Of a DNA stretch of 64,000 nucleotides, positions 49,198 through 64,000 are shown piece after piece. The notes beneath the pieces were generated by a model. It had not been told where the DNA came from and did no database searches. It saw nothing but the letters and a program-made list of their open reading frames with translations. The first letter of the stretch is position 1; the number at the start of each line of letters is the position of its first letter. The DNA is from Deltaproteobacteria bacterium. GTDB taxonomy: Bacteria > Myxococcota > Kuafuiibacteriia > Kuafuiibacteriales > Kuafuiibacteriaceae. The DNA lies in contig JAVJQW010000017.1 in assembly GCA_040218735.1 (NCBI GenBank), positions 96,001-160,000 on the forward strand. The letters are read 5' to 3'. Both the position numbers and the translations under genes were made by a program.

Positions 49198-49288
49198 GGC
49201 GCCCCGACGCTTCCCGACAGGGGTGCTACCCTTCCGTACATCGGCGGGTTGGCTTCAGGTCCAGGCACGCCCATCCTTGACGTCGGGT

Positions 49289-51052
49289 ATGCCTAGGATG
49301 AGGACTGCGACGTTTGTCTCCGTACTCTGTGGCGTCGCCGCCACAGCGGCGTTCACCGGATGCGAAGATCCGACCACGCCCGATCTCTTCATCGCGCGGT
49401 GCGCCGCCGACTCGGAGTGCGGACCGGGATCGATCTGCATCGACGGCGAGTGTGTTCCGCGCGACGCGGTGTCATGCCTGTCCGTCGACGGCGGCCAAGC
49501 GATCCTTCAGCCCGGACCGCCGCTCATCGACTTCGGTCACACGGGCAGCGGCACGAGCATGGCCGACCTCGACCTGCGGAACATCGGCGACTGCACGCTC
49601 ACGATCTTCGAAGCGTACTTCGAGAAAGAAGAGGAGTCCGCGTTCGAGTGCCCGTTCTGCGCGCCCGAAGAGTTCCCGATCGAGCTGTTCCCCTTCCGCG
49701 ACCACGCCGTCGCGGTGTTCTTCACGCCGGACGAAGTCGGCGTCTACGAAGACAACCTCATCCTCCTCTCCGACGACGCCGAGTTCTCCGAGATCAAGGT
49801 CCCGGTCCGCGCGCAGTTCAACGGCCTCCCCGAGGCGTCCGTCGCGCCGGCGTCGCTCGACTTCGACTACGCGCCGGTGGGCCGCACGATCACGCGCACC
49901 ATTCAGATCACCAACCGCGGCACCGGCACCGCGCCGCTCGTGATCAACCGCGTCGAGATCCAGACGTCGACCGACACCTCGTTCTCCTACGAGCCCGAGC
50001 TCGAAGATCCGATCGAGCTGCTCCCGCCGATCGACGACGACCCGGGTGACAGCTACATCCTCAACGTTCGTTACCACCCCAAGGAGATCGACACCCACGT
50101 CGGCGACCTCGTGCTCTACACGAACCAGCCGTCGAACAGCGTGGTGCGCGTGCCGCTCACGGGTTCGTCGAAGACCCCCGCGAAGATCGCCGTCTCCCCC
50201 GAGCAGATCGTGTTCGGCCCGGTGCCGATCGGCGGCACCACCGCCCTCCCGCTCACCATCGTGAACGAAGGCGGCACCCCGCTGCGCATCAGCTACCGCT
50301 GGGGCGGCACGGGCCTGTCCACGGACCTCTCCGCGCTCCCGCTCGTCGTCCCGCCGATTCCGCCGGGCGCGTACACCGAGCTGCAGGTGCTCGTGACGGC
50401 CACGGCCCCCGCGCCGATCACCGGACTGCTGATCCTCGAGACCAACGATCCCTCGCGCCCGTCCGTCACCATACCGGTGTCCGCCGACGGCCAGGACGTC
50501 GTCGGCGCGCAGGTCGTGAAGATCGACATGAATTTCGAGAACGGATCCGACAGCGCCTTCGACGACGACTTCAGAAACGTCGACATGTCGCTCGAGAACC
50601 CGTTCGGTCTGGTCTGCAACAAACAGTACCCGCAGCCCACGAACTGGGGCGCGTTCGGCAACCCGAGCTGGATCAGCTTCGGCGTGAAGGAAGAGCCGGA
50701 GCGCGTCGTCCTCCCGGACGCGATGCAGGACGGCACGTACCGCGTCCTCCTCACCTACGTCGAGGACTGCTCGACGGTCCCGTCGGGGTTGGTCGCCGCG
50801 ATCCTCGGCATCTCGATCGAAGCGCTGATCGCTTACTTCACCGGCGGCATCACGACCGGGATCACGGGCGGCCAGGTCGCGGACGCGATCGACGACCTCT
50901 GTCTCAGTCGAAGCTCCTCGGCCGTCACCGTGACGGTCTATTTGAACGGCGCCATCGTCGCGGAGGTCCCGGTCACGCTGGGCCGGCGCGGTGACTACGT
51001 CTACGCGGTCGACCTCGTGCGGTCCGGCGGCCAGTACACGGTGCGGCGGTGA
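49289..51052 (+). CDS. Lipoprotein with Cys-rich module, three ASH (choice-of-anchor D) Ig-like domains and C-terminal beta domain
   Basis: Lipobox FTGC; CAADSECGPGSICIDGEC; repeated PxxxDF/VFG...xNxG...L motifs. Confidence 0.85.
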   Translation: MPRMRTATFVSVLCGVAATAAFTGCEDPTTPDLFIARCAADSECGPGSICIDGECVPRDAVSCLSVDGGQAILQPGPPLIDFGHTGSGTSMADLDLRNIGDCTLTIFEAYFEKEEESAFECPFCAPEEFPIELFPFRDHAVAVFFTPDEVGVYEDNLILLSDDAEFSEIKVPVRAQFNGLPEASVAPASLDFDYAPVGRTITRTIQITNRGTGTAPLVINRVEIQTSTDTSFSYEPELEDPIELLPPIDDDPGDSYILNVRYHPKEIDTHVGDLVLYTNQPSNSVVRVPLTGSSKTPAKIAVSPEQIVFGPVPIGGTTALPLTIVNEGGTPLRISYRWGGTGLSTDLSALPLVVPPIPPGAYTELQVLVTATAPAPITGLLILETNDPSRPSVTIPVSADGQDVVGAQVVKIDMNFENGSDSAFDDDFRNVDMSLENPFGLVCNKQYPQPTNWGAFGNPSWISFGVKEEPERVVLPDAMQDGTYRVLLTYVEDCSTVPSGLVAAILGISIEALIAYFTGGITTGITGGQVADAIDDLCLSRSSSAVTVTVYLNGAIVAEVPVTLGRRGDYVYAVDLVRSGGQYTVRR

Positions 51053-53031
51053 ACGCGATGAACAAGCGGATCGTCCTCGCCTTCCTCGCCCTCGCGGCGT
51101 GTGACCGTACGAACGCGGGCAGCGGGCCCGTCGAGATGCTGGAGCCGAAGCCCTCCGGTATCGAAGCGGAGCCGCGGTGGCTCACGTTCACGTGTGTCGA
51201 GCCGGGCTGCAACGAGACCCTCGAAGCGCAGATCTCGGTCATCGGCCGGCGCGACGTCGCGATCAAACGCATCGTCCTGTCGGAGCGCGACCGTAACGAC
51301 TTCCTCGTCACGTCGTCGGAGGAGCCCCCCTTCGTGCTCACGGCCGGCGAGGCGCTCGACGTCAGCGTGCAGTACCTCCCGACCGGCGACGTTCGCCTCG
51401 GCGACGTCGAGCTCGAGGTCATCTACACCGACGCGTCCGCCTCCGAAGAGGAGGATCGCATCGAGCCCGGCGAGCTGAAGGTGCCGCTGGTGCGTCGCCT
51501 GATCGGCGAGCCGCGCCTCGCGGTCGACCCGGGCCAGCTCGTGTTCGGCGCCGTCCTCCCCACCGCGGAGAAGCGCCTCCCCCTCACGATCTCCAACGAC
51601 GGCTTCGGCAACGTTGGGCTGATCATCGACTCGATCGAAGCGGAGCCCGCGGGCGTCGTCCGCGTCGAGCGCCTCCCCGAGCGCGCCCTCGTCCCCGGCG
51701 ACAGCTGGGACCTCGAGGTCGTCTTCGCGCCCAACAACGAACGCTTCCTCGAAGGCTGGCTCAACATCGAGCCCGTCGGCTCCACGGTCGAAGGCGCGCG
51801 CGTCCCGCTGCTCGGCACGAGCATCGAGAACCCGACCGTCTACACCGAGCCCGCGGATCGCGTGGACTTCGGCGAAGTGCCGGTCGGCTTCCCCGACATG
51901 GCGACGGTGACGATCCAGAACCGCGGCGCCGCGGACCTCTTCGTCAGCGACGTGCGGCTCGCAGGCCAGGTTGCGGGCGCCGACATGATGGTGATCCTGG
52001 AGGACGGCGTACAGACCGCGACCATCCCGCCGCTCGGAACGCTCGACGCGATCATCACCGTCGAAGGCACCGCGCCCGGCGAGATCGACACCGCGCTGCT
52101 GATCACGTCGACCGACCGCGAGACGCCGGTGCTCGACGTCCCCGTCACGGGCCTGATCACCAAGCCGATCATCCAGGTCACGCCGGGCACGGTCGACTTC
52201 GGCGCGGTGCCGCGCGGGTGGACGACGGTCCAGACCGTCGAGATCGAGAACGTCGGCTACGGCGACCTCGTGCTGTCGAACGTCGCGATGATCCTCGGCT
52301 CCAGCGAGCTGTTCACGATGCGCACCGTCCCGACGCTCCCGATCACCCTGCGCCACGACCAGCGCATCGCGGTGGAGATCGAGTTCCGCTCCGAAGCCGA
52401 AGCGAGCTTCTCGGGCACCCTCGCGATCGACTCGAACGACGCCGAGAACCAATTCATGGAGATCCAGCTCGCCGCGCAGGGCGCCTCCTGCGACGCCGGC
52501 TGCCCGATCGCCAACGGCACCCCGACCTGCACGCGCGGCCTGTGTGAGGTCGCGAGCTGCGACCCCAACTGGTACGACTCCGACGTCGACCCCGTGAACG
52601 GCTGTGAGTGCCGCGAGGTCTCGAACAACGGCGACCCGTCCGCGTTCTGCAGCGAAGGGCGCTACCTCGGCACCGTCGACGACGACGGCGACCGCACGTC
52701 ATTCACCGGCCTCATCCACGCCGAGGACGACATCGACATGATTCGCTTCTTCGGCGAGGACAAGACCAACTTCTTCTCCGACGACTTCGACGTCCGCGTC
52801 ACGCTCGACAGCGCCGACCCGAACATCAAGTTCTGCGTCTACCGCCACGACACCGGTAACCACCTCACGGAGTGTTTCCTCGAGAACGAGTCGTGCCCCG
52901 GCAACCGGAGTTACCGCCGCGACGGCGACCTCGGCCCGGACGACAGCGCGGACTTCGTCGTGAAGATCTTCCGTGAACCGGGGACCGCCGCGTCCTGCAC
53001 GCCGTACACGGTCTTCATCCGCAACGGCTGA
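51049..53031 (+). CDS. Lipoprotein with four ASH Ig-like domains, Cys-rich region and C-terminal beta-sandwich
   Basis: Lipobox LAAC; VFGAV, VDFGEV, VDFGAV domain starts; CDPNWYDSDVDPVNGCEC; GTGA overlap with the previous gene. Confidence 0.85.
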   Translation: MNAMNKRIVLAFLALAACDRTNAGSGPVEMLEPKPSGIEAEPRWLTFTCVEPGCNETLEAQISVIGRRDVAIKRIVLSERDRNDFLVTSSEEPPFVLTAGEALDVSVQYLPTGDVRLGDVELEVIYTDASASEEEDRIEPGELKVPLVRRLIGEPRLAVDPGQLVFGAVLPTAEKRLPLTISNDGFGNVGLIIDSIEAEPAGVVRVERLPERALVPGDSWDLEVVFAPNNERFLEGWLNIEPVGSTVEGARVPLLGTSIENPTVYTEPADRVDFGEVPVGFPDMATVTIQNRGAADLFVSDVRLAGQVAGADMMVILEDGVQTATIPPLGTLDAIITVEGTAPGEIDTALLITSTDRETPVLDVPVTGLITKPIIQVTPGTVDFGAVPRGWTTVQTVEIENVGYGDLVLSNVAMILGSSELFTMRTVPTLPITLRHDQRIAVEIEFRSEAEASFSGTLAIDSNDAENQFMEIQLAAQGASCDAGCPIANGTPTCTRGLCEVASCDPNWYDSDVDPVNGCECREVSNNGDPSAFCSEGRYLGTVDDDGDRTSFTGLIHAEDDIDMIRFFGEDKTNFFSDDFDVRVTLDSADPNIKFCVYRHDTGNHLTECFLENESCPGNRSYRRDGDLGPDDSADFVVKIFREPGTAASCTPYTVFIRNG

Positions 53032-53669: not shown

Positions 53670-54752
53670 GTGCGGGTCGCGATCCTCATCCGCCGCTTCT
53701 CCACGCGCGGCGGGAACGAACGTCAGGCCTTCGAGCTCGCGCGCCACCTCTGCGGCGCCGGCCACGACGTCCACGTGCATTGCCACAAGGCGGACGAGAC
53801 CGCGGCGCTCCCGGGCGCCCACGTGCACGTCCTCCCCGGCATCCGCTTCGACCCGACGGCCGCGATGCTCAGCTACGCGTGGTCCACCCGCCGACTCGTG
53901 CGTCGCCTCCGAAGCGAAGACCGCATCGACCGCGTCATCGGATTCGGCCAGAGCGTCGAGCAGGACGTCTATCGCCTCGGCGGCGGCACCCACGCCGAGT
54001 TCCTCGTCGCCACGAAGGACCACCCGGGCGCTCGCGGCGGTCCCGTGCTCGACCGCGTCGCGCTCCGCCTCGAACGCATCCGCCTGAGGCCGGAGCGCTC
54101 GCCGCACCTCGTCGCGCCGAGCCACCGCGTCGCGGACGAGCTCGTCCGGCACTACGGTGTCGCGACCGATCGCATCCACGTGGTGTGGAACGGCACCGAC
54201 CTCGAGCGCTTCCAAACCGGCCCCGCCGAAGACCTCGGCTGGCGCGACGAACGCCCGCTCGCCCTCTTCGTCGGACAGGATCCCCACCGCAAGGGCTTCG
54301 ACATCGCCGCCGAGGCGACGCGCCGCCTCGGCGCACGCCTTGTTTACGTCGGCCGCGGCGACCGCCCCGCGCGCCTCCCCGACCACGTGCTGTGGGCCGG
54401 CGAGCGCCGCGACATGGAGCGTGTCTACCGCGCCGCCGACGTGCTGATCGCCCCGAGCCGCTACGACCCGTTCGGCGGCGTCGTCCTGGAGGCGGCGGCG
54501 TGCGGACGGGCATCGGTCGCCACGCGGCGCATCGGCGCGACCGAGCGATTCGCCGAGACCCCGCTCGATGCACTGCTCGTCGAGGACCCGGAGGACGTCG
54601 ACGGGGTCACGCGGGCCCTCGAATCAGCGCTGGCCGACCACGACGCGCTCGGCGCCGCCGCGCGTGCGGCCGTGGCCGACGCCTCGATCCAAGCGTGGGG
54701 TGAACGGATGGTCGAGGTTCTATCCCTTCCGATCCCCGAACGTGTGCGCTAA
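53670..54752 (+). CDS. Glycosyltransferase family 4
   Basis: RGGNER, RKGFD, PSRYDPFGGVVLEAAACG. Confidence 0.92.
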   Translation: MRVAILIRRFSTRGGNERQAFELARHLCGAGHDVHVHCHKADETAALPGAHVHVLPGIRFDPTAAMLSYAWSTRRLVRRLRSEDRIDRVIGFGQSVEQDVYRLGGGTHAEFLVATKDHPGARGGPVLDRVALRLERIRLRPERSPHLVAPSHRVADELVRHYGVATDRIHVVWNGTDLERFQTGPAEDLGWRDERPLALFVGQDPHRKGFDIAAEATRRLGARLVYVGRGDRPARLPDHVLWAGERRDMERVYRAADVLIAPSRYDPFGGVVLEAAACGRASVATRRIGATERFAETPLDALLVEDPEDVDGVTRALESALADHDALGAAARAAVADASIQAWGERMVEVLSLPIPERVR

Positions 54753-54761
54753 CGAGGAGCC

Positions 54762-55556
54762 GTGCGGATCAGCGGGCTGGTGGTCTGTAAGAACGAGGCC
54801 GACCGAATCGACGCCTGCCTACGGTCGTTGTCGTTCTGCGACGAGATCGTCGTCGTCGACTCCGGCTCCACGGACGACACCGTCGCGATCGCCCAGCGCC
54901 ACGGCGCGCGGGTGATCGAGCGCCCCTGGAAAAACGCGAACGACCAGAAGGAGTTCGGCCGCCAACAGGCGCAGGGCACGTGGCTCGTGAACCTCGACGC
55001 CGACGAGGTGGTCTCCGACGCGCTCCGCGACGAGATCCTCGCGCTGGTGGAGCGCGGCGGCGACGACGGCGTCGACGCGTACCTCGCGCCGTTCAAGAAC
55101 TACTTCCGCACCGCGTGGGTGCGGCGCTGCGGCTACTACCCGGACCCGCACGTGCGTTTCATCCGTCGGGCCGGCGCCCGCTGGGATCTCGAAACCCCGG
55201 TCCACGACAACGTCCTCGCCGACGGCGCGACCCGGATGCTGAAGGGGCACGTCGAACACCACTCGTTCCACTCGATGGAGCACTACGTCGACAAGTCGAA
55301 GGCCTACGCCGAGGGGTTCGCGCGGCACGCCCACGCCCAGGGGCGCCGGGCGAGCGCCCCGACGATCCTGCTGCATACCGGATGGCGCTTCTTCCGCATC
55401 TACGTCCTGAAGGGCGGATTCCTGGAGGGCGCACTGGGCCTCACGATCGCGGGGCTGCAGGCGTTCGACGTGTTCCGGAAGTACACCCGGCTCTGGGAGC
55501 TCGGTCGATTCCCGCCCGAGGAGGACGTGGGTGAAGGAGCGCCTCCTTCCGCTTGA
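54762..55556 (+). CDS. Glycosyltransferase family 2 (WaaE/KdtX-like)
   Basis: KNEADRI, VVDSGSTDDT, LDADE, YPDPHVR, VHD, GGFLEG. Confidence 0.92.
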   Translation: MRISGLVVCKNEADRIDACLRSLSFCDEIVVVDSGSTDDTVAIAQRHGARVIERPWKNANDQKEFGRQQAQGTWLVNLDADEVVSDALRDEILALVERGGDDGVDAYLAPFKNYFRTAWVRRCGYYPDPHVRFIRRAGARWDLETPVHDNVLADGATRMLKGHVEHHSFHSMEHYVDKSKAYAEGFARHAHAQGRRASAPTILLHTGWRFFRIYVLKGGFLEGALGLTIAGLQAFDVFRKYTRLWELGRFPPEEDVGEGAPPSA

Positions 55557-56745: not shown

Positions 56746-57912
56746 ATGGGCGTACGAATCGGCGCCGCCGCGATCGGGCTCGCCGCCCTCGTGGGCGTGA
56801 GTTGCTACCCGAAGAACTTCCCGCCGCCGACCGCCAAAGCGAGCTTCGCCAAGGACTTCCCGTTCGACATCGGTCCCTACCTCGTCTACGTCGAGGGCGG
56901 TCGCCTGGACGTCGTCGTCGGGCACGATGCCCTGAAGACACCCCCCGTCGTCGCCTGGCAGACCGGTACCAGCACCAACGCCGAGAGCACCAAGGTCACG
57001 AGCACCTCGATCGACGGTCTCTGGGTTGCCCAGCTCACCGAGCTCCCGCTGGACGTACCGCTGACGTACACCGTCGAGAGTGAGCTGGGGACCGTCGGCC
57101 CGCTCCCCTTCCGTGGGGGCCGCTCGCCCGGACGACGCTTCCGCTTCGCGGCGTTCGGCGACACCCGGACCGGCCACAAGGTCCACCGCGCGCTGATCGA
57201 GAACATGGCGAAGGAGAACGTCGACCTCGTCGTCCACAGCGGTGACCTGGTCGAATCGGGCGGCGTGCTCGACCAGTGGGTGGAGTTCTTCTCGATCGAG
57301 GCGCCGGTGATCGCGTCGGCACCGCTGATCGCCGCGCTCGGCAACCACGACCTCTCCCAACGCAACCACTACAAACGTTTCATCCTCGCGAAGCGCTACG
57401 CCGACGACCAACGTTACTTCTATCGCGACTGGGGCGACGTCCGCGTGATCATCATGGACTCCGAGGAGGAGTCGCGCGCCGGCTCCGCACAGTACGAGTT
57501 CCTGGAGTCCGCGATGCGCGACGGCGCCGAGAAGGACATGTTCATGATCGTCGCGCTCCACCGCCCGCCCTACTCCGCGGGCGCGCACGGCTCCGACCTC
57601 GAGATGCGCGAGATCCTCGGCGAGCTGTGCCCGCGCTTCGGCGTCGAGGTCGTGCTCGCCGGACACGATCACAACTACGAGCGCACCAAACGCATCGACG
57701 GCGTAACCTACTTCGTCGCGGCGTCCGGCGGCGCGCCGATCCGACGCATGAACCCGAGCTGGTTCTCGGAGGTCGTCCGCACCGAGCCGCACTACGTCAT
57801 CTTCGACCTGGAGCGCCGGAGCCTCGTGGGCCGCGCCATCAACCTCGACGGGGACACGTTCGACACCTTCGTGATCCCGCCCCTCGACCCACAACCGCCG
57901 AAGAAGCCATGA
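56746..57912 (+). CDS. Secreted metallophosphoesterase (purple-acid-phosphatase fold), probable lipoprotein
   Basis: Signal with GVSC; FGDTR, SGDLV, GNHD, LHRPPY, AGHDHNYER. Confidence 0.9.
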   Translation: MGVRIGAAAIGLAALVGVSCYPKNFPPPTAKASFAKDFPFDIGPYLVYVEGGRLDVVVGHDALKTPPVVAWQTGTSTNAESTKVTSTSIDGLWVAQLTELPLDVPLTYTVESELGTVGPLPFRGGRSPGRRFRFAAFGDTRTGHKVHRALIENMAKENVDLVVHSGDLVESGGVLDQWVEFFSIEAPVIASAPLIAALGNHDLSQRNHYKRFILAKRYADDQRYFYRDWGDVRVIIMDSEEESRAGSAQYEFLESAMRDGAEKDMFMIVALHRPPYSAGAHGSDLEMREILGELCPRFGVEVVLAGHDHNYERTKRIDGVTYFVAASGGAPIRRMNPSWFSEVVRTEPHYVIFDLERRSLVGRAINLDGDTFDTFVIPPLDPQPPKKP

Positions 57913-59213
57913 AGGGGACACTCGCGGTCATCGCGTTGGCGACGGCCATCGCTTCGCCCGCGCGTGCGCAGACGTCGTCCTCGACGACGGCGGAACCACT
58001 CACGACCGAAGTGCGTCCCGAGACCGCCCCCGGCCTCGACCTCCCGACCCTGGTCCTCCGGCTCCCGCAGGCCTTCCTCGAGCTGGCGTTCGTACCGCTC
58101 ATGCCGGTCGCGGTGCTCTTCGAGCGGTACCACGTGATCGATCGTCTCTTCGATCTGTTCACGAACGACGCCAAGACACTCGCCGTGGTCCCGATCGTCG
58201 TCCCGTTCAACGCCTCCGGCATCGGCGTCGGCGCGACCCTCGTCTACAACGAGCCGCTCGGGAGCGCGGACCGTCTGATCGCCGTGGTGCTCGTTCGCGA
58301 GAACCGCGACCGCAACATCTCCGTCAGCTTCGGACGACGCCTCGCGACCCTCAACGGACGCGCGTTCTCACTCGGCGCTTCGTACTCGTCCGACCACGAC
58401 CAACGCATCTACGGCTTCGGCGCCGGCACGCAGGAGTCCGACGAGCGCTTGATCCGCGTCGACGGCGTCGACGCCACGGCGTCCTTCCAGCTGATCGCAC
58501 CGGCCCGCGTGCCGGAGTACTCGGCGGGGGTCGGCGCGGCGTTCCGTCGGCGGCGCATCGGCGTCGGCAGCGGCGATCGCGCCCCCGGCCTCGCACCCAA
58601 CGACTCCGTCGCGGTGCCGCCCGGCTTCGGACGTACGCTCGACTATCCGGAGTTCTCGCTCGAGAGCGCGTACGACTCACGCGACAGCGTCGGGCGCACG
58701 ACCAAGGGCATCATCGCGAGCCTCCAGTCGTCGGTCACACACGACATGAACGGCGGCTCCACCGGCGGCGTGCGCATCGAAGGTGGCTTCTCTGCGTTCC
58801 TCCCGCTGCTCCCGTTGTACCGCGTGCTCTACCTCTCGGTCGGCGCGGCGGGCACCGTGCCGATCGGCGAAGAGAACGAGGTCCCGCTCCACCAGATGGT
58901 GAGCCTCGGCGGCAGCGGCTCACTCCGTGGTTATCCGTCGGACCGCTTCTTGGGGCGGATGGGTTGGTGGGCGACCGCCGAGTGGCGCTACCGCTTCTAC
59001 GAGTACGAGGACAGCACGATCGGTCTGTCCGCGGTGTGGTTCGGTGACCTCGGTCAGGTCTCGAACGACGTCGACGGCTTCGGCGATGGCCTCCCCTGGT
59101 CGGTGGGTTTTGCGCTGCGCGCCGAGCAGAACCTGATCAACCTCGGTCGCGCGCAAATCGCGTACGGGCCCGAAGGGTTCCGCTTCAGCGTCGGCGTCGG
59201 GGAGGTGTTCTGA
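57909..59213 (+). CDS. Omp85 (BamA/TamA) family barrel without evident POTRA domains
   Basis: Signal peptide ending ARA; YDSRD, LGGSGSLRGY loop-6 motif, AEWRY, terminal F; 434 aa; ATGA overlap. Confidence 0.88.
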   Translation: MKGTLAVIALATAIASPARAQTSSSTTAEPLTTEVRPETAPGLDLPTLVLRLPQAFLELAFVPLMPVAVLFERYHVIDRLFDLFTNDAKTLAVVPIVVPFNASGIGVGATLVYNEPLGSADRLIAVVLVRENRDRNISVSFGRRLATLNGRAFSLGASYSSDHDQRIYGFGAGTQESDERLIRVDGVDATASFQLIAPARVPEYSAGVGAAFRRRRIGVGSGDRAPGLAPNDSVAVPPGFGRTLDYPEFSLESAYDSRDSVGRTTKGIIASLQSSVTHDMNGGSTGGVRIEGGFSAFLPLLPLYRVLYLSVGAAGTVPIGEENEVPLHQMVSLGGSGSLRGYPSDRFLGRMGWWATAEWRYRFYEYEDSTIGLSAVWFGDLGQVSNDVDGFGDGLPWSVGFALRAEQNLINLGRAQIAYGPEGFRFSVGVGEVF

Positions 59214-60874
59214 TGCGCCGGCTCCTCCCGCTGCTGCTCCTCACCGCGTGCGGCGCGCCCGCCTGGAAACAAACGCCGCACGACGTCCGGTTCCAACGTA
59301 CGCCGCCGCCCACCCCGCACGCCGCGCCGAAGCCGAACGAACCGTCGGACTCTTGGTACGCGATCGAGCAGACCACCGCCCGCCCCATCGCGACGGCGCT
59401 GAACCCGGGGCACTACATCGACCTGTTGCGCGGCGGTCCTCCGCCCCTCGACGTCAACGCGTTCGGCGAAGTGGTCGACTCGATGTGGTTCGAGAATCGT
59501 CTCGGCCGGCGCGCGCTGAGCGTCGAAGAGATCCGCCGTGGCCCGAACGAACACGACGGCCCCGACGAACGCCGCCTCGAAGTGCTCGGCGGCAAGATCG
59601 AAGGCGCCACCCCCGGCCTCGTGTTGCGCGACGCACGCGGCGACCGCTACGTCGCGAAGTTCGATCCGCCGGCGTACCCGGGCCTCGCGAGCGGCGCGGA
59701 GATCATCGCGACGAAGATCCTGTGGGCCGCCGGTTATCACGTGCCGGAGAACTACGTCGGCACGCTCGACATGGGTGCGCTCGAGCTGAAGGACGACGCG
59801 ACGACCGGAGGCCACTACGGCGAACGCATCCCGCTCGACCGAGGGCGCCTCGACGATCTGCTCGCCCACGTGAACCCGTTCCCCGACGGCACGGTGCGAA
59901 CGCTCTACTCCCGCTTCCTCCCGGGGCGCCTGATCGGCCCATTCCACTACCGCGGCCAGCGCGCGGACGATCCGAACGACGTCATCCCGCACGAGCGGCG
60001 ACGCTCCCTGCGCGGCCTCGGTTTGTTCTCGGCGTGGCTCAACAACGTCGACGCCCGCGCGTCGAACACCCTCGACGTATTCATCCCCGGCGACGACGGG
60101 CGCGGGTACGTGAAGCACTACCAAATCGACTTTGGTGACGCGCTCGGCTCCGCCGGTCTGGGCCCGAAGTACCTCGGCGAAGGTTACGAAGGTGTCCTCG
60201 ACTGGCCGAAGGTGCTCCGCAGCCTGACCGCGTTCGGCGTGTGGTACCGCCCCTGGCTCGGTCTGCGCCGCTCGCCGTACCGCGCCGTGGGGGTGTTCGA
60301 GGCCGACGTCTTCACCCCCGAGGCCTGGCGCTCCAAGCTGCCCAATCCGGCCTTCGACGAGGCCACCTGGCTCGACCGCTACTGGGCGGCGGCGATCATC
60401 GCGCGCTTCACCCCGTCGCACCTGGCGGCGATCGTGGAGGAAGCGGGCTACATCGAGCCGGGTGCGGACGCCTGGGTGCTGCGTGTGCTCCAGGAGCGTC
60501 AGTTCAAGATCTTGGAGTGGGTCTTCGGGCGGGTGTTGCCGCTCGATGATGTGCGCGCGGAGGGCGCGACGCTGTCGATGACGGACCTCGAGCGCACCTG
60601 CGGCCTCCTCACCGGCGTCCCGGCCGCGTACACGTGGTCGGCCCGCTGGGACGACCAATTCGTCGGGGAGGGGAATGGCCCCACCCCCACCGCCGATCTC
60701 GCGGCGCTGATCGCGGACGCCCGCGACCGCCACGGCGCGGCGTTCGACGACGATCCGTTTCTCACCGTGACCTTCGCGCGGACCGAACCGGCTCACGGTG
60801 CGACGGTCGACGTGCACGTTCGGGTCGTCGAGGGTGCGCTCCTCCCGGTTGGTCTCGATCGAACCGTCGACTAG
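59213..60874 (+). CDS. Lipoprotein with atypical kinase fold (HipA/PI3K-PI4K/CotH-like)
   Basis: Lipobox LTAC; GGKIEGATPG, YVAKFD, SGAEIIATK, WLNNVDARASN, IDFGDALG; TGATG overlap. Confidence 0.75.
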   Translation: MRRLLPLLLLTACGAPAWKQTPHDVRFQRTPPPTPHAAPKPNEPSDSWYAIEQTTARPIATALNPGHYIDLLRGGPPPLDVNAFGEVVDSMWFENRLGRRALSVEEIRRGPNEHDGPDERRLEVLGGKIEGATPGLVLRDARGDRYVAKFDPPAYPGLASGAEIIATKILWAAGYHVPENYVGTLDMGALELKDDATTGGHYGERIPLDRGRLDDLLAHVNPFPDGTVRTLYSRFLPGRLIGPFHYRGQRADDPNDVIPHERRRSLRGLGLFSAWLNNVDARASNTLDVFIPGDDGRGYVKHYQIDFGDALGSAGLGPKYLGEGYEGVLDWPKVLRSLTAFGVWYRPWLGLRRSPYRAVGVFEADVFTPEAWRSKLPNPAFDEATWLDRYWAAAIIARFTPSHLAAIVEEAGYIEPGADAWVLRVLQERQFKILEWVFGRVLPLDDVRAEGATLSMTDLERTCGLLTGVPAAYTWSARWDDQFVGEGNGPTPTADLAALIADARDRHGAAFDDDPFLTVTFARTEPAHGATVDVHVRVVEGALLPVGLDRTVD

Positions 60875-63800
60875 TGCCAGCATCGCAGTCGGTGGCGGCT
60901 CCGGAACGCATCCCCGACGCCATCGGGCCGTACCAGATCCTCGAACCGCTCGGACGTGGCGGCATGGGCGTCGTCTACCGGGCCGCCCACGAACGCACCG
61001 GTGCGCTCGCCGCGCTGAAGACCGTGCTCGTCCCTTCGGGCCGTCACCTCGGCGCCATCCGTCGCGAGATCCAGGCGCTCGCACGCGTGCAGCACCCCGG
61101 CATCGTGCGCATCATGGACGAGGGCGTCGATGATCGCGGCCTGCCCTGGTACGCGATGGAGCTGTTGCACGGGATGTCGCTGCGCGACTACCGCTTCACG
61201 CCGTCCTCGATGACCCCCGACCGCGACGTCGTCACGCGTTCGGCGAGCGACGCCCCCGCCACCGAACCCGTCGTCGCACCGACCGCTCCGTTGCCGCGGC
61301 ACATGTGGAAGCCGGTGCTCAGCATCTTCCGGAAGCTGTGCGCTCCGCTCGCGTACGTACACGGCGAGGGGCTCGTGCACTGCGACCTCAAACCCGAGAA
61401 CGTCTTCCTCCGCTTCGACCTGCACCCCGTGCTCGTGGACTTCGGTCTGATGTCGCGCTTCGGGAGTGATCTGCACCGGGAGATCCTGAACGTCGATCTG
61501 TTCATGGGCACCGCCGAGTACATGGCGCCCGAGCAGTGGGAGGGGAAGCCGGTCGACGCGCGCACGGATCTGTACGCGCTCGGCTGCATCCTGTTCGAAG
61601 CGATCGCCGGCGAGCCGCCGTTCGTCGGCAAACGCAGCGAGCTCTACCGCGCGCACCTTTCGAAACCCGCACCCCGCCGGAGCGCGCCGACGGCATCCCC
61701 GAGGATCTCGACGACCTCGTGCTGAGGCTCCTCGCGAAGCGCCCGCGCGATCGCATCGGACACGCCGACGAAGTCGCGCGCCTCCTCGCGATCCTCGGGG
61801 CGGAGGGCCCGCGCGAGGTCGGCCCCACCGCGCGGCCCTACCTGTTCCGCCCCTCGTTCTCCGGGCGCGGACAGGCCACCCACGAGGTCATCGAGCTCGT
61901 GGCCGGCGGCTCCGAAGACGGGCGCGTCGTCGTGCTCGAGGGTGAGAGCGGCGTGGGCAAGACACGCCTCGCGATGGAAGCCGCACGGATGTCGAAGCGC
62001 GGCGGCGTACGGGTGCTGACCGGCGAGTGCTCGCCGATCCTCCACGACCAGCCGCACGCGCGCGGGTCGGTCCTGCACCCGTTCAAGTCGATCCTCCTGC
62101 ACATCACGGATCTCGTCCGTGAGCGTGGTGATGCGGCGTTCGATCGTCTGGTCGACGGGCGCGCGCGGATCCTCGCGCGCGTCGAGCCGCAGATCGCGAC
62201 GCTCCCCCAGATCGAGCGCGTGCCGGAGCTCATCTCGCTGTCCGTCGACGCGGAGCGCGCGCGCATGCTGAGCGCGCTGGTCGCGACGTTGTCGGTGCTC
62301 GGCGAGGACCAGCGAACCTTCATCGTCATCGACGACATCCAGTGGGCCGACGAGCTCACGTTGGAGCTGCTGCACCTGCTCGTGCGTCGGCGCAGCGCGT
62401 GGCGCAACGTCGTGGTCCTGGCGACGTGTCGCACGGAGGAGATGCCCGAGAGCGTGCGCCGCCTGACGGAGATCGATGAGGTCGGCCACGTCCGCCTCGC
62501 GCGCCTCGGTCCGCGCGCGGTGGAGACGGTCGTGTCGGAGATGCTCGGCTTCCCGCCGCCCGACACGTTCGCGACGTTCATGGCGGAGCAGACGGGCGGC
62601 AATCCGTTCTTCGTGGCGGAGTACCTGCGCGCGGCGATGACCCGCGGCCTGTTGATGCGCGACGGCCAGGGCAAGTGGTCCGTGACGCTGCAGGAAGGCA
62701 ACTACGACGCGCTCGGGTTGCCAAACACGCTCGTCGACGTCCTCGCGCTGCGGCTCGACACGCTCGGCGAAGACGCGCGTGCGTTCGTCGACGCGGCGGC
62801 GGTGCTCGGTCGCGAGGCGGCGCCGCACATCACGCAGCACGTCGCCAAGCGCGCCGACCGGACGACGCGCGTCGGCATCGAGGAGCTCCTCCGCAAGCAG
62901 ATCCTCACGGAGGCCGGCGACGGGCGGCTCCGTTTCTCACACGACAAACTCCGCGAGGTCACCTACGACAACATCGACGAGGCGCACCGCCCCGCGCTCC
63001 ACCGGCGCGCCGCCGAGGCGATCGAAGCGCTCGCGAAGACCCCATCCCCCGCCGCCCTCGCGTACCACTGGGAAGAAGGCGGCCACCCGGAGCGTGCGGT
63101 CGACTACCTCGAGCAGGCCGCGGAGCTCGCGATCGACGCCGGCGCGCATCGGGACGGTGCGACGCACCTCGCGCGCCTCCTCACGCTCGCGGAGAAGCCG
63201 ACCGGCGACGTCGAAGAGCGGCACCGCACCGCACGCTGGCATCGGCAGCTCGGCGCCGCGCACCTCGCGTCGGGGGATCTCGAGACGTCGCGCGTACACT
63301 CCAGCCGCGCGTTGTCGCTGCTCGCGCTCGACCCGCCGCAGTCGACGGGCGAGTGGGCGATGAAGCTCGCCACGGAGCTGCTCCGGCAGGTCGCGCACCG
63401 GCTGCTCCCGCCGCGTTTTTACCAAGAGCCGACGTCGAAGGCGCTCCTCGCGGAGGCGACGCAGGCGAGCGGCACGATCGCGCGCGTCGCGTTCTTCGAG
63501 AACGACGCGCTGCAGATCGTCGCGAGCGCGTTGTGGTCGATCAACCTCGCGGAGCGCGCGAGTCACCTCCTGGAGGCGGCGCGAAACTACAGCGGCCTCG
63601 GCTGGGTCTTCGGGCTCTCGGGGCTCCATCAGATCGCGGACGGGTACTTCGACCGCGCGCGTGCGACGGGCATCGAGCAGCGCGACTACAACGGCCTCGT
63701 CTTCAGCCTCACCTCGGAGGCGGTGTACCGGATCGGGCGGGGCCAGTGGGATCGTGCGACGCGGGTGTTGTCGGAGTGTGACGCTCCGCTGGAGGAGCTC

Positions 63801-64000
63801 AAGGATCCGCAAGCCCGAGAGCTCGTCGAGACGCTGCGTGGACACCCGGAGTACTTCGCCGGTCGCTACGACGACGCCATCGCGCGGCACCGGTTCGTCC
63901 TCGACTCCGCACGTCAGCGCGAGAACCGACAACACGAAGCGTGGAGCCTCTACTGCGCCGCGCGGTCCGCGCTCGAGCTGGAGCGCTACGCGGAGGCGAT
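60874..64000 (+). pseudogene. Ser/Thr kinase + AAA-type ATPase + TPR protein, frameshifted near 61672 (or sequencing error); runs off the window
   Basis: GRGGMG, HCDLKPEN, DFG, YMAPE, then stop at 61725; the shifted frame continues GIPEDLDDLVLRLLAKRPRDR, GESGVGKT, IDDIQWAD, GGNPFF to the window end. Confidence 0.85.

What the first reader, a model, noticed from the sequence alone, without database searches (positions are those of the whole stretch)
59213..60874. Exported atypical kinase with apparently intact catalytic residues
Seen: Gly-rich loop (GGKIEGATPG), Lys (VAKFD), helix-C Glu (SGAE), catalytic D-x4-N (DARASN) and DFG, in the right order, behind a clean LTAC lipobox. Established: HipA, PI3/PI4K, CotH and FAM20 kinases share this layout, and the periplasm lacks an ATP pool. 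Inference: it uses extracellular or prey-derived ATP or another phosphoryl donor, and may phosphorylate lipid, glycan or protein.
Basis: partly seen in the sequence, partly recalled or inferred. Interest (0 to 1): 0.75.

Follow-up and report, generated by a model that had tools for sequence, protein, structure and literature searches.

The report
Periplasmic kinase docked on Omp85 barrel
This gene encodes an unclassified, exported kinase that almost always sits next to an outer-membrane barrel gene, often with a phosphatase and sometimes with a nucleotide-transporter gene, which suggests that some bacteria run phosphorylation in the periplasm, a compartment thought to be poor in ATP.

Summary
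The 553-aa ORF matches no Pfam, NCBIfam or PDB sequence family. It folds like the FAM20/CtkA/PI4KII/CotH/HipA atypical kinases (Z 14.3-10.9), and K-E-D-N-D is intact in 115 of 120 close homologs.

The kinase ends an overlapping run of genes: exported metallophosphoesterase, POTRA-less Omp85 barrel, kinase. The barrel lies directly upstream in 74 of 80 loci from several phyla, and the phosphatase is nearby in 43. A complex model supports kinase-barrel binding (0.76, best control 0.00; mark reached by 116 of 157 solved and 2 of 215 mismatched pairs), with contacts on periplasmic turns. An NTT/TLC-family transporter gene lies at 14 of 80 loci, a candidate ATP supply. It is absent from this window and lacks key ATP/ADP-antiport residues.

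Bacteroidota 'Metallo-Omp85' fusions carry the same three domain types, with a different kinase family.

Best reading: a periplasmic kinase/phosphatase pair on the outer-membrane inner face. Activity, donor and substrate are untested.

The parts
59213..60874 (+). Exported atypical kinase, 553 aa (P0001): signal peptide and lipobox, N-terminal docking arm (about res 21-90), kinase domain (about 110-441), C-terminal FN3/Ig-like domain (about 442-545)
   Evidence: ORF; no Pfam, NCBIfam or PDB sequence hit; model pLDDT 95.6; fold matches
59213..59251 (+). Signal peptide ending in the LTAC lipobox (Cys13)
   Evidence: Sequence; Cys in 117 of 120 close homologs, 90 of 143 divergent ones
59588..59701 (+). 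Gly-rich loop (res 126-135), beta3 Lys149 (59657-59659) and helix-C Glu163 (59699-59701)
   Evidence: K149 and E163 120 of 120 in A1; DSSP placement
60050..60136 (+). Catalytic loop D280-x-R282-x-x-N285 (60050-60067) and DFG (60128-60136)
   Evidence: D+2 is R or K in 121 of 143 divergent homologs
60197..60259 (+). Hydrophobic helix after the DFG (res 329-349), predicted to pack on the barrel's periplasmic turns
   Evidence: Top-ranked hydrophobic 11-mer of the mature protein in both A1 and A2, narrowly ahead of helix C; interface list
60536..60847 (+). C-terminal FN3/Ig-like beta-sandwich (res 442-545)
   Evidence: VIA-align Z 7-8 to fibronectin type III domains, rmsd 2.5-2.9 over about 80-85 residues. 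This is a middling Z for a common fold.
57909..59213 (+). POTRA-less (noNterm) Omp85 barrel, 434 aa (P0002): signal peptide, N-terminal LTT strand and three helices, 16-strand barrel, L6 LRGY..RF motif. Its stop overlaps the kinase start (TGATG).
   Evidence: PF01103 E 1.8e-15; model with helices 45-84 and 16 barrel strands; Foldseek BamA/TamA; overlap
56746..57912 (+). Exported calcineurin-like metallophosphoesterase, probably a lipoprotein, 388 aa (P0003 from Met2), with D, GD, GNH and GHxH motifs. Its stop overlaps the barrel start (ATGA).
   Evidence: PF00149 E 1.3e-17; sequence; GNH and GHxH both kept in 40 of 43 homologs

Best explanation
The protein is the catalytic subunit of an envelope phosphorylation module. 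(1) It is exported: as a lipoprotein in Myxococcota, and with an ordinary signal peptide in many Acidobacteriota (shown by sequence). (2) It docks on the periplasmic face of the co-encoded POTRA-less Omp85 barrel, in the place where POTRA domains would be, through its N-terminal arm and its post-DFG helix (predicted). (3) It transfers a phosphate from a nucleotide, most likely ATP (inferred from the conserved K/E/D/N/D and G-loop). The acceptor is a membrane-proximal envelope molecule. I commit to a lipid or glycolipid head group at the outer-membrane inner leaflet as the single likeliest substrate, at about 0.35. (4) The co-encoded exported metallophosphoesterase removes the phosphate or recycles the nucleotide product (inferred). 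(5) Where an NTT/TLC transporter is in the operon, it may pass the nucleotide across the inner membrane (inferred, about 0.3). In this window's lineage the supply would have to be encoded elsewhere or come from the low periplasmic pool. The confidence given is for steps 1-3 without the substrate class.
For: Fold: FAM20C Z 14.3 (rmsd 3.9, 255 aligned), CtkA 14.2 (3.7, 225), PI4KIIalpha 12.8 (4.4, 239), CotH 12.5 (4.1, 232), HipA 10.9 (4.1, 217). Residue conservation. The barrel is directly upstream in 73 of 80 loci by script, plus L011 by inspection; 3 of the other 6 end under 300 bp upstream. The phosphatase is present in 43 of 80: upstream in most Myxococcota loci, downstream in Acidobacteriota. 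Complex model: 0.76 against a best control of 0.00. The mark was reached by 116 of 157 solved and 2 of 215 mismatched pairs (rough here, own alignments); the runs agree in at least 89% of contacts; partner pLDDT is at least 88. The barrel contacts are residues 30-79 and the beta10-11 and beta12-13 turns. These are periplasmic by strand count, with the LRGY L6 loop on the opposite side. The best contacts use the barrel's LTT strand, where the other alignment rows had no residues; yet a TT-like motif is there in 35 of 40 barrels paired with a PHD..FQ-type kinase against 4 of 24 others (confounded by clade). A TLC-family gene lies at 14 of 80 loci, in five separate places on the kinase tree (by inspection). 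Precedent: the enzyme domain of the Omp85 protein PlpD is periplasmic, and its loss alters lipid levels (PMC11116518).
Against: No activity, donor or substrate was tested. The top fold matches, FAM20C and CtkA, are protein kinases, and they are tied within about 1.5 Z of the lipid kinase PI4KII, so the fold does not favour lipid. There is no NTT gene in this 64-kb window or at the loci of its 11 nearest tree neighbours. NTT is absent from 66 of 80 loci. The NTT-like proteins lack AtNTT1 K155 and E245 (0 of 13 each) and keep K527 in 2 of 13 (hand mapping; residue roles from PMC3306366). Characterised NTTs act in uptake (PMC5381601). The helix-C Glu is not E in 45 of 143 divergent homologs. L049 and L069 have no barrel nearby, and in L057 it is convergent. 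No lipid-synthesis genes recur near the module.
Confidence: 0.6

Rival explanations
1. Same periplasmic, barrel-docked module, but it is a protein kinase/phosphatase pair acting on periplasmic or outer-membrane proteins, like FAM20C or CotH in other extracytoplasmic compartments. This competes with the lipid substrate, not with the location.
For: The best fold matches are FAM20C, CtkA and CotH. D+2 is R or K in 121 of 143, as in canonical protein kinases (recalled). Omp85 barrels normally handle proteins. The C-terminal FN3-like domain could bind a protein substrate.
Against: No candidate substrate gene recurs at the 80 loci. The post-DFG segment is hydrophobic and is predicted at the membrane boundary.
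Confidence: 0.3
2. The barrel carries the kinase to the cell surface, where it uses extracellular or prey-derived ATP.
For: Barrel gene followed by an exported partner gene resembles two-partner secretion. The nearest named relatives are Myxococcota, many of which are predators (my knowledge).
Against: The barrel has no POTRA domain. The predicted contacts are periplasmic turns and the N-terminus, not extracellular loops. The module occurs in Acidobacteriota. The same surface assumption was overturned for PlpD (PMC11116518, abstract).
Confidence: 0.13
3. The module scavenges nucleotides inward. The barrel admits phosphorylated metabolites, the kinase-fold protein and the phosphatase convert or sense them, and the NTT imports them.
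For: Characterised NTTs serve uptake, and non-canonical ones carry NAD or other nucleotides (PMC5381601). Periplasmic phosphatases hydrolyse ATP (PMC7432876). The neighbouring NTT-like proteins lack canonical antiport residues.
Against: It does not explain why the kinase-barrel pair is the constant core (74 of 80) while the phosphatase (43) and NTT (14) are optional. A phosphatase would destroy what an NTT imports.
Confidence: 0.12
4. The fold does other chemistry (nucleotidyl transfer, or a polyphosphate or lipid-pyrophosphate donor), or it is mainly a structural accessory of the barrel.
For: Kinase folds that AMPylate are known (recalled: SelO). The kinase-like domain of the Metallo-Omp85 fusions has R, Q and DRD where this family has K, N and DFG. 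An invariant basic patch (R263, R264, R267, H260) is unexplained.
Against: The full canonical residue set is kept in canonical positions. No polyphosphate gene family came up among the recurrent neighbours examined.
Confidence: 0.1

Closest known systems
Metallo-Omp85 subfamily (Heinz and Lithgow 2014, PMC4104836)
   Same: The same three domain types: PF00149 phosphoesterase, CtkA-like kinase fold and POTRA-less Omp85 barrel. In their Table S3, 62 of 62 Metallo rows have a CtkA (3akj) hit and 17 lack the phosphatase (counted by eye), so kinase plus barrel is the constant core there too. The main text has 0 occurrences of 'kinase' and calls PF00149 a metalloprotease.
   Different: Single chains, against three genes here. 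The kinase domain is a different sequence family (YVLRS, DWDRHDDQW, RDRD; hhalign probability 0.85%, E 0.065). Our barrel profile scores an unrelated noNterm barrel (1.5e-32) at least as well as three fusion barrels (8e-19 to 9e-28; a fourth 0.093).
FAM20C, CtkA, PI4KIIalpha, CotH, actin-fragmin kinase, HipA (atypical kinase folds)
   Same: Fold (Z 14.3 to 10.9) and the K/E/D-x4-N/D layout. FAM20C and CotH also work outside the cytoplasm (my knowledge).
   Different: 8-17% identity; no HMM match. The catalytic loop is D-x-[RK]-x-x-N rather than D-R-H-x-x-N (recalled for FAM20C, PI4K and CtkA). It has an N-terminal docking arm and an FN3-like tail, and is coupled to a barrel.
PlpD (patatin-Omp85) of Pseudomonas aeruginosa
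   Same: An Omp85 barrel that holds an enzyme in the periplasm; its loss changes lipid levels (PMC11116518, abstract and section 9).
   Different: A fused phospholipase that needs no nucleotide. Here the enzyme is a separate kinase with a phosphatase.
NTT/TLC nucleotide transporters of free-living bacteria (Major et al. 2017, PMC5381601)
   Same: The neighbours hit PF03219 and TIGR00769 (below that model's cut-off) and the two solved NTT1 sequences (E 7e-36, 6e-28). They include NTT-HEAT with a cNMP-binding gene.
   Different: Those authors give the function in free-living bacteria as unknown and mention no barrel or kinase neighbour in the three of four text parts read. Canonical residues are mostly not kept.

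Membership tests
Atypical protein-kinase-like fold (FAM20/CtkA/PI4K/CotH/HipA group) | Two-lobed kinase fold | tested here: met
   VIA-align: the top 14 rows are all atypical kinases, Z 14.3-9.5, above the unrelated rows at 8.0 or less; Foldseek agrees
Atypical protein-kinase-like fold (FAM20/CtkA/PI4K/CotH/HipA group) | Conserved beta3 Lys, helix-C Glu, catalytic Asp, Asn and DFG Asp | tested here: met
   115 of 120 close homologs; K 141, D 137, N 136, D 141 of 143 divergent ones; helix-C E or D in 130 of 143
Atypical protein-kinase-like fold (FAM20/CtkA/PI4K/CotH/HipA group) | These residues converge on one active site | tested here: inconclusive
   Canonical secondary-structure positions; distances not measured, no coordinates on hand
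Atypical protein-kinase-like fold (FAM20/CtkA/PI4K/CotH/HipA group) | ATP-dependent phosphotransfer | not testable with these tools
   Needs an assay
FAM20C (PF06702), CotH (PF08757), HipA (PF07804/PF20613), PI3/PI4-kinase (PF00454) | Match to the family HMM | tested here: not met
   0 Pfam and 0 NCBIfam families at E up to 1; Atlas neighbours with these families score only 0.78-0.80, lead level
HipA toxin-antitoxin kinases | Cytoplasmic kinase with an adjacent antitoxin gene | tested here: not met
   Export signal in 139 of 143; the upstream gene is a barrel
Bacterial lipoprotein | Signal peptide with lipobox Cys | tested here: met
   LTAC; Cys in 117 of 120 close homologs. Regex and hydrophobicity test only; no dedicated predictor was available.
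noNterm Omp85 (partner gene) | 16-strand Omp85 barrel with L6 motif and no POTRA | tested here: met
   PF01103, no POTRA hit; 16 strands preceded by three helices; BamA/TamA matches
Metallo-Omp85 | Phosphoesterase, kinase-like domain and barrel in one chain | tested here: not met
   Three separate genes. No fusion of this kinase family among the 8000 scored candidates of 1214-3465 aa (weak, and 969-1213 aa was not searched).
Metallo-Omp85 | Kinase domain homologous at sequence level | tested here: inconclusive
   hhalign probability 0.85%, E 0.065; G-loop to catalytic loop in register, but against a shallow 6-row profile; motif residues differ
Two-partner secretion (TpsA/TpsB) | TpsB barrel with two POTRA domains and a TPS-domain passenger | tested here: not met
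   No POTRA; ShlB only E 0.042, below cut-off; no Pfam domain on the partner
Canonical ATP/ADP antiporter NTT (neighbours at related loci) | TLC family membership | tested here: met
   PF03219 above cut-off at 14 of 80 loci; PDB NTT1 hits; none in the window
Canonical ATP/ADP antiporter NTT (neighbours at related loci) | AtNTT1 K155, E245, K527 conserved | tested here: not met
   K155 0 of 13, E245 0 of 13, K527 2 of 13; hand mapping; roles from PMC3306366

The most novel reading that the evidence does not exclude
Free-living diderm bacteria have a dedicated trans-envelope phosphorylation system. An NTT-family carrier exports ATP into the periplasm in exchange for ADP; a kinase docked on a POTRA-less Omp85 barrel uses it to phosphorylate an outer-membrane lipid or protein; a paired phosphatase reverses this. 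The Bacteroidota 'Metallo-Omp85' proteins would be a fused counterpart. This would give functions to three orphan groups at once (free-living NTTs, noNterm/Metallo Omp85s, this kinase family) and a first route for ATP into the periplasm.
Probability: 0.27. Interest if true: 0.94.

Novelty: new variant of a known kind. Interest (0 to 1): 0.8.

Why it matters
How ATP reaches the periplasm is stated as unresolved, on the ground that E. coli has no inner-membrane ATP/ADP translocase (PMC7432876). The roles of NTTs in free-living bacteria (PMC5381601) and of noNterm and Metallo Omp85 proteins (PMC4104836, PMC11358297) are also open. This module puts a kinase, a phosphatase, an Omp85 barrel and, in some lineages, an NTT in one operon. 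Cultured strains carry it: Edaphobacter modestus DSM 18101 (L073) has NTT-NTT-barrel-kinase-phosphatase in one run, so all of these questions can be tested together. The family is large: 2467 clusters at 50% identity score E up to 1e-10, with no Pfam or NCBIfam model. It also corrects the reading of Metallo-Omp85: kinase plus barrel is its constant part, and the 'metalloprotease' is a phosphoesterase.

Tried and rejected
Sequence searches of Pfam, NCBIfam and the PDB with the kinase gave nothing. The A2 profile gave only armadillo-repeat noise. A Pfam scan of all A1 members was not obtained. The kinase has no match in the plasmid collection.

The search for fused forms found none. It is weak evidence, and 969-1213 aa was not covered.

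I rejected the idea that the locus is simply a split Metallo-Omp85. The kinase profiles do not match significantly, and the barrel is no closer to the fusions than to an unrelated noNterm barrel. The second exported kinase at L051 and L056 also does not match A2 or the fusion kinase significantly.

A polyphosphate donor was considered; no such gene family came up among the recurrent neighbours I annotated. These were 32 representatives from the top 45 clusters plus 44 picked neighbours, out of 3051 ORFs. The upstream glycosyltransferases (53670-55556) did not come up as recurrent neighbours, so I did not take them as substrate hints. The downstream Ser/Thr kinase-AAA-TPR gene belongs to a large paralog family and is not treated as part of the module.

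Promoter and terminator scans were at chance level. The tree's change counts compare only the two labelled groups and were not used.

The metagenome and viral contig collections stayed unchecked. Whether this window's genome encodes an NTT elsewhere stayed unchecked.
Full report
Observation. It has no Pfam or NCBIfam match at E up to 1 and no PDB sequence match at E up to 10. A word-indexed search gave 281 homologs among 7999 scored candidates, and the named ones are Myxococcota or Deltaproteobacteria 'hypothetical proteins'. In an alignment of the query with 119 of the 120 listed hits (the 96% identical one left out), K149, E163, D306 and F307 are invariant, D280 is kept in 117 of 120 and N285 in 118 of 120. 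All five catalytic residues are intact together in 115 of 120. A profile search of 50% representatives found 3661 proteins at E up to 1e-3 and 2467 at 1e-10, of which 150 were listed. In a 143-row alignment built mostly from these (short fragments left out), K, D, N and D stay at 136-141 of 143, while helix-C Glu is E in 98 and D in 32. An export signal is seen in 139 of 143, but a lipobox in only 83; the acidobacterial members mostly lack the Cys.

Fold. AlphaFold gave pLDDT 95.6 and pTM 0.94. VIA-align ranks only atypical kinases in its top 14: FAM20C Z 14.3, CtkA 14.2, Hydra Fam20 13.3, PI4KIIalpha 12.8, CotH 12.5, actin-fragmin kinase 11.7, HipA 10.9. The rmsd values are 3.7-4.4 over 217-257 residues at 8-17% identity, and Foldseek agrees. 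Residues 442-545 resemble FN3 domains at a middling Z of 7-8. Protein, lipid and sugar kinases are close in rank, so the fold does not name the substrate. I could not measure active-site distances.

Context in the window. Two genes overlap head to tail upstream. One is an exported calcineurin-like phosphoesterase (56746-57912; PF00149). The other is an Omp85 barrel (57909-59213; PF01103), whose stop overlaps the kinase start. The barrel model has 16 strands, three N-terminal helices and no POTRA domain, and it matches BamA and TamA.

Context elsewhere. One scan of species-representative genomes confirmed 116 relatives and returned the best 80 loci, from Myxococcota, Acidobacteriota and a few records labelled Fibrobacteraceae, Krumholzibacteriia and Bdellovibrionales. 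The barrel is directly upstream in 73 by script and in L011 by inspection. Three of the other six end under 300 bp upstream; L049, L057 and L069 are real exceptions. The phosphatase is present at 43 loci, upstream in most Myxococcota and downstream in Acidobacteriota, and 40 of 43 keep both GNH and GHxH. Clustering 3051 neighbour ORFs gave three families at 10 or more loci: two-component proteins (18), Ser/Thr kinases (10) and one transporter cluster (16). Everything else was at 6 or fewer, mostly from one close clade. The transporter is of the TLC/NTT family: PF03219 passes its cut-off at 14 loci, and the profile hits only the two solved NTT1 sequences in the PDB. In 10 loci it is directly upstream of the barrel on the same strand, as a tandem pair in seven acidobacterial loci. 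L035 reads NTT-HEAT, cNMP protein, barrel, kinase, phosphatase; L031 has it directly after a second kinase. These cases lie at five separate places on an 86-row kinase tree (by inspection; rows under 350 aa were left out). Against this: there is no NTT in the window or at its 11 nearest neighbours, 66 of 80 loci lack it, I have no genome-wide background rate, and the residues that AtNTT1 needs are mostly not kept (K155 0 of 13, E245 0 of 13, K527 2 of 13; hand mapping; PMC3306366 passages).

Binding and side of the membrane. The barrel (30-434) with the kinase (14-553) scored 0.76 against a best control of 0.00. The mark was reached by 116 of 157 solved complexes and 2 of 215 mismatched pairs (rough here, since my own alignments were used). 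The runs agree in at least 89% of contacts and the partner pLDDT is at least 88. This supports binding but does not show it. The kinase has no sequence relative in the PDB, so recall of a solved complex is unlikely. The barrel contacts are the N-terminal segment and the turns beta10-11 and beta12-13. By strand count these are periplasmic, and the LRGY loop between beta11 and beta12 is the extracellular L6 (Omp85 topology from my knowledge). The kinase contributes residues 21-90 and the post-DFG helix, which holds the top-ranked hydrophobic 11-mer of the mature protein in both alignments, only narrowly ahead of helix C. The tightest contacts use the barrel's LTT strand, where the other alignment rows were blank. 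A TT-like motif is present there in 35 of 40 barrels paired with a PHD..FQ-type kinase and in 4 of 24 others. Two of those four are misassigned rows of the first clade, and the pattern follows clade, so it is weak support.

Relation to Metallo-Omp85. In Heinz and Lithgow 2014 (PMC4104836; passages, section 10, a supplement search and parts 1-2 of 3 of file 3 read), Table S3 lists a CtkA hit between the phosphoesterase and the barrel in 62 of 62 Metallo rows, 17 of which lack the phosphoesterase (counted by eye). The main text never uses the word kinase. A search with the barrel profile among longer proteins returned such a kinase-barrel fusion as the best of 8 hits (P0273, E 1.4e-26 against 1e-9 for the next), and plasmid records gave further ones. 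Their kinase has different motif residues and does not match this family significantly, and the barrels are not specifically close. The locus therefore works like a three-gene Metallo-Omp85 but is not a member.

Mechanism. Shown by sequence or computation: export signal, kinase fold and residues, gene linkage. Predicted: docking on the periplasmic face of the barrel. Inferred: phosphotransfer from ATP, a membrane-proximal substrate (lipid about 0.35, protein about 0.3), reversal by the phosphatase, and nucleotide supply by NTT in some lineages (about 0.3). PlpD is the precedent for an Omp85 holding a lipid-modifying enzyme in the periplasm (PMC11116518; abstract and section 9). Periplasmic ATP is low but measurable, and its route is unknown (PMC7432876, passages). 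ATP exchange with a host by a bacterial NTT has been proposed, not shown, for an endosymbiont (PMC7969357, passages). NTT function in free-living bacteria is unknown (PMC5381601, text parts 1-3 of 4, supplements not read). The noNterm paper has no occurrence of 'kinase' (PMC11358297, passages). PMC13595192 (passages) was not relevant.

Novelty. Ten full-text searches showed no paper on this kinase family or on a kinase-Omp85-NTT operon. I saw only the listings (at most 20 rows each) for most hits. The library lacks most subscription journals, and bioRxiv supplements were closed, so a prior mention cannot be excluded. The fold and the three-domain combination have precedent, so I rate it a new variant of a known kind. 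The NTT-fed periplasmic kinase would be categorically new if shown. Interest 0.8.

Noticed in passing
window 60892-61722 and 61536-63998 (+): A Ser/Thr kinase and an AAA_16-TPR ORF are one roughly 1200-aa protein in L001 (85% identical) but lie in different frames here, with the switch near 61668-61683. This is a frameshift or a sequencing error.
   Followed up: partly
L056:5720-6589 and L051:4185-5114: A second, unrelated exported kinase-like protein (D-R-N-x-x-N, IDH motif; weak HipA_2 and PI3/PI4K hits for L056) sits directly upstream of the barrel, so these loci stack two or three exported kinases.
   Followed up: partly
L020, L024, L026, L031, L042, L051, L065: Two kinase paralogs lie in one locus: in L020, L024, L026, L031 and L042 from both main clades with two barrels, in L051 and L065 in tandem behind one barrel.
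   Followed up: partly
L068:9399-10664 and L075:9513-10778: The kinase carries an extra C-terminal region of about 420 aa with no Pfam or NCBIfam match.
   Followed up: partly
L044:1487-3409; L059:5260-6595; L018:5546-6772: The L044 kinase has an internal stop, the L059 NTT gene is in two frames, and the L018 phosphoesterase has lost its GNH and GHxH motifs while its NTT is the closest to canonical.
   Followed up: no
L083:778-1686, L085:915-1787, L084:804-1592: Neighbours of the Metallo-Omp85 fusions: a beta-propeller (weak SdiA-regulated match) directly upstream in L083 and a similar-sized unscanned gene in L085, a Pycsar-effector-family gene in L083, and an undecaprenyl-diphosphate phosphatase directly upstream in L084.
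   Followed up: no
L069:9441-10193: A barrel-less kinase locus has a convergent PAP2 phosphatase and an upstream DUF1329/LolA-like gene.
   Followed up: no
window 49223-53031 (+): Two tandem exported proteins with choice-of-anchor D / HYDIN-like Ig repeats and Cys-rich segments. A similar pair lies directly upstream of the phosphatase in L010.
   Followed up: no
window 53670-55556 (+): GT4 and GT2 glycosyltransferase genes lie just upstream of the module but did not recur at related loci.
   Followed up: partly
kinase residues 253-267 (window 59969-60013): A near-invariant DDPND.I.HE.RR.LR segment ahead of the catalytic loop, with R264 and R267 in 143 of 143, is unexplained; it could be an anion-binding site.
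   Followed up: no
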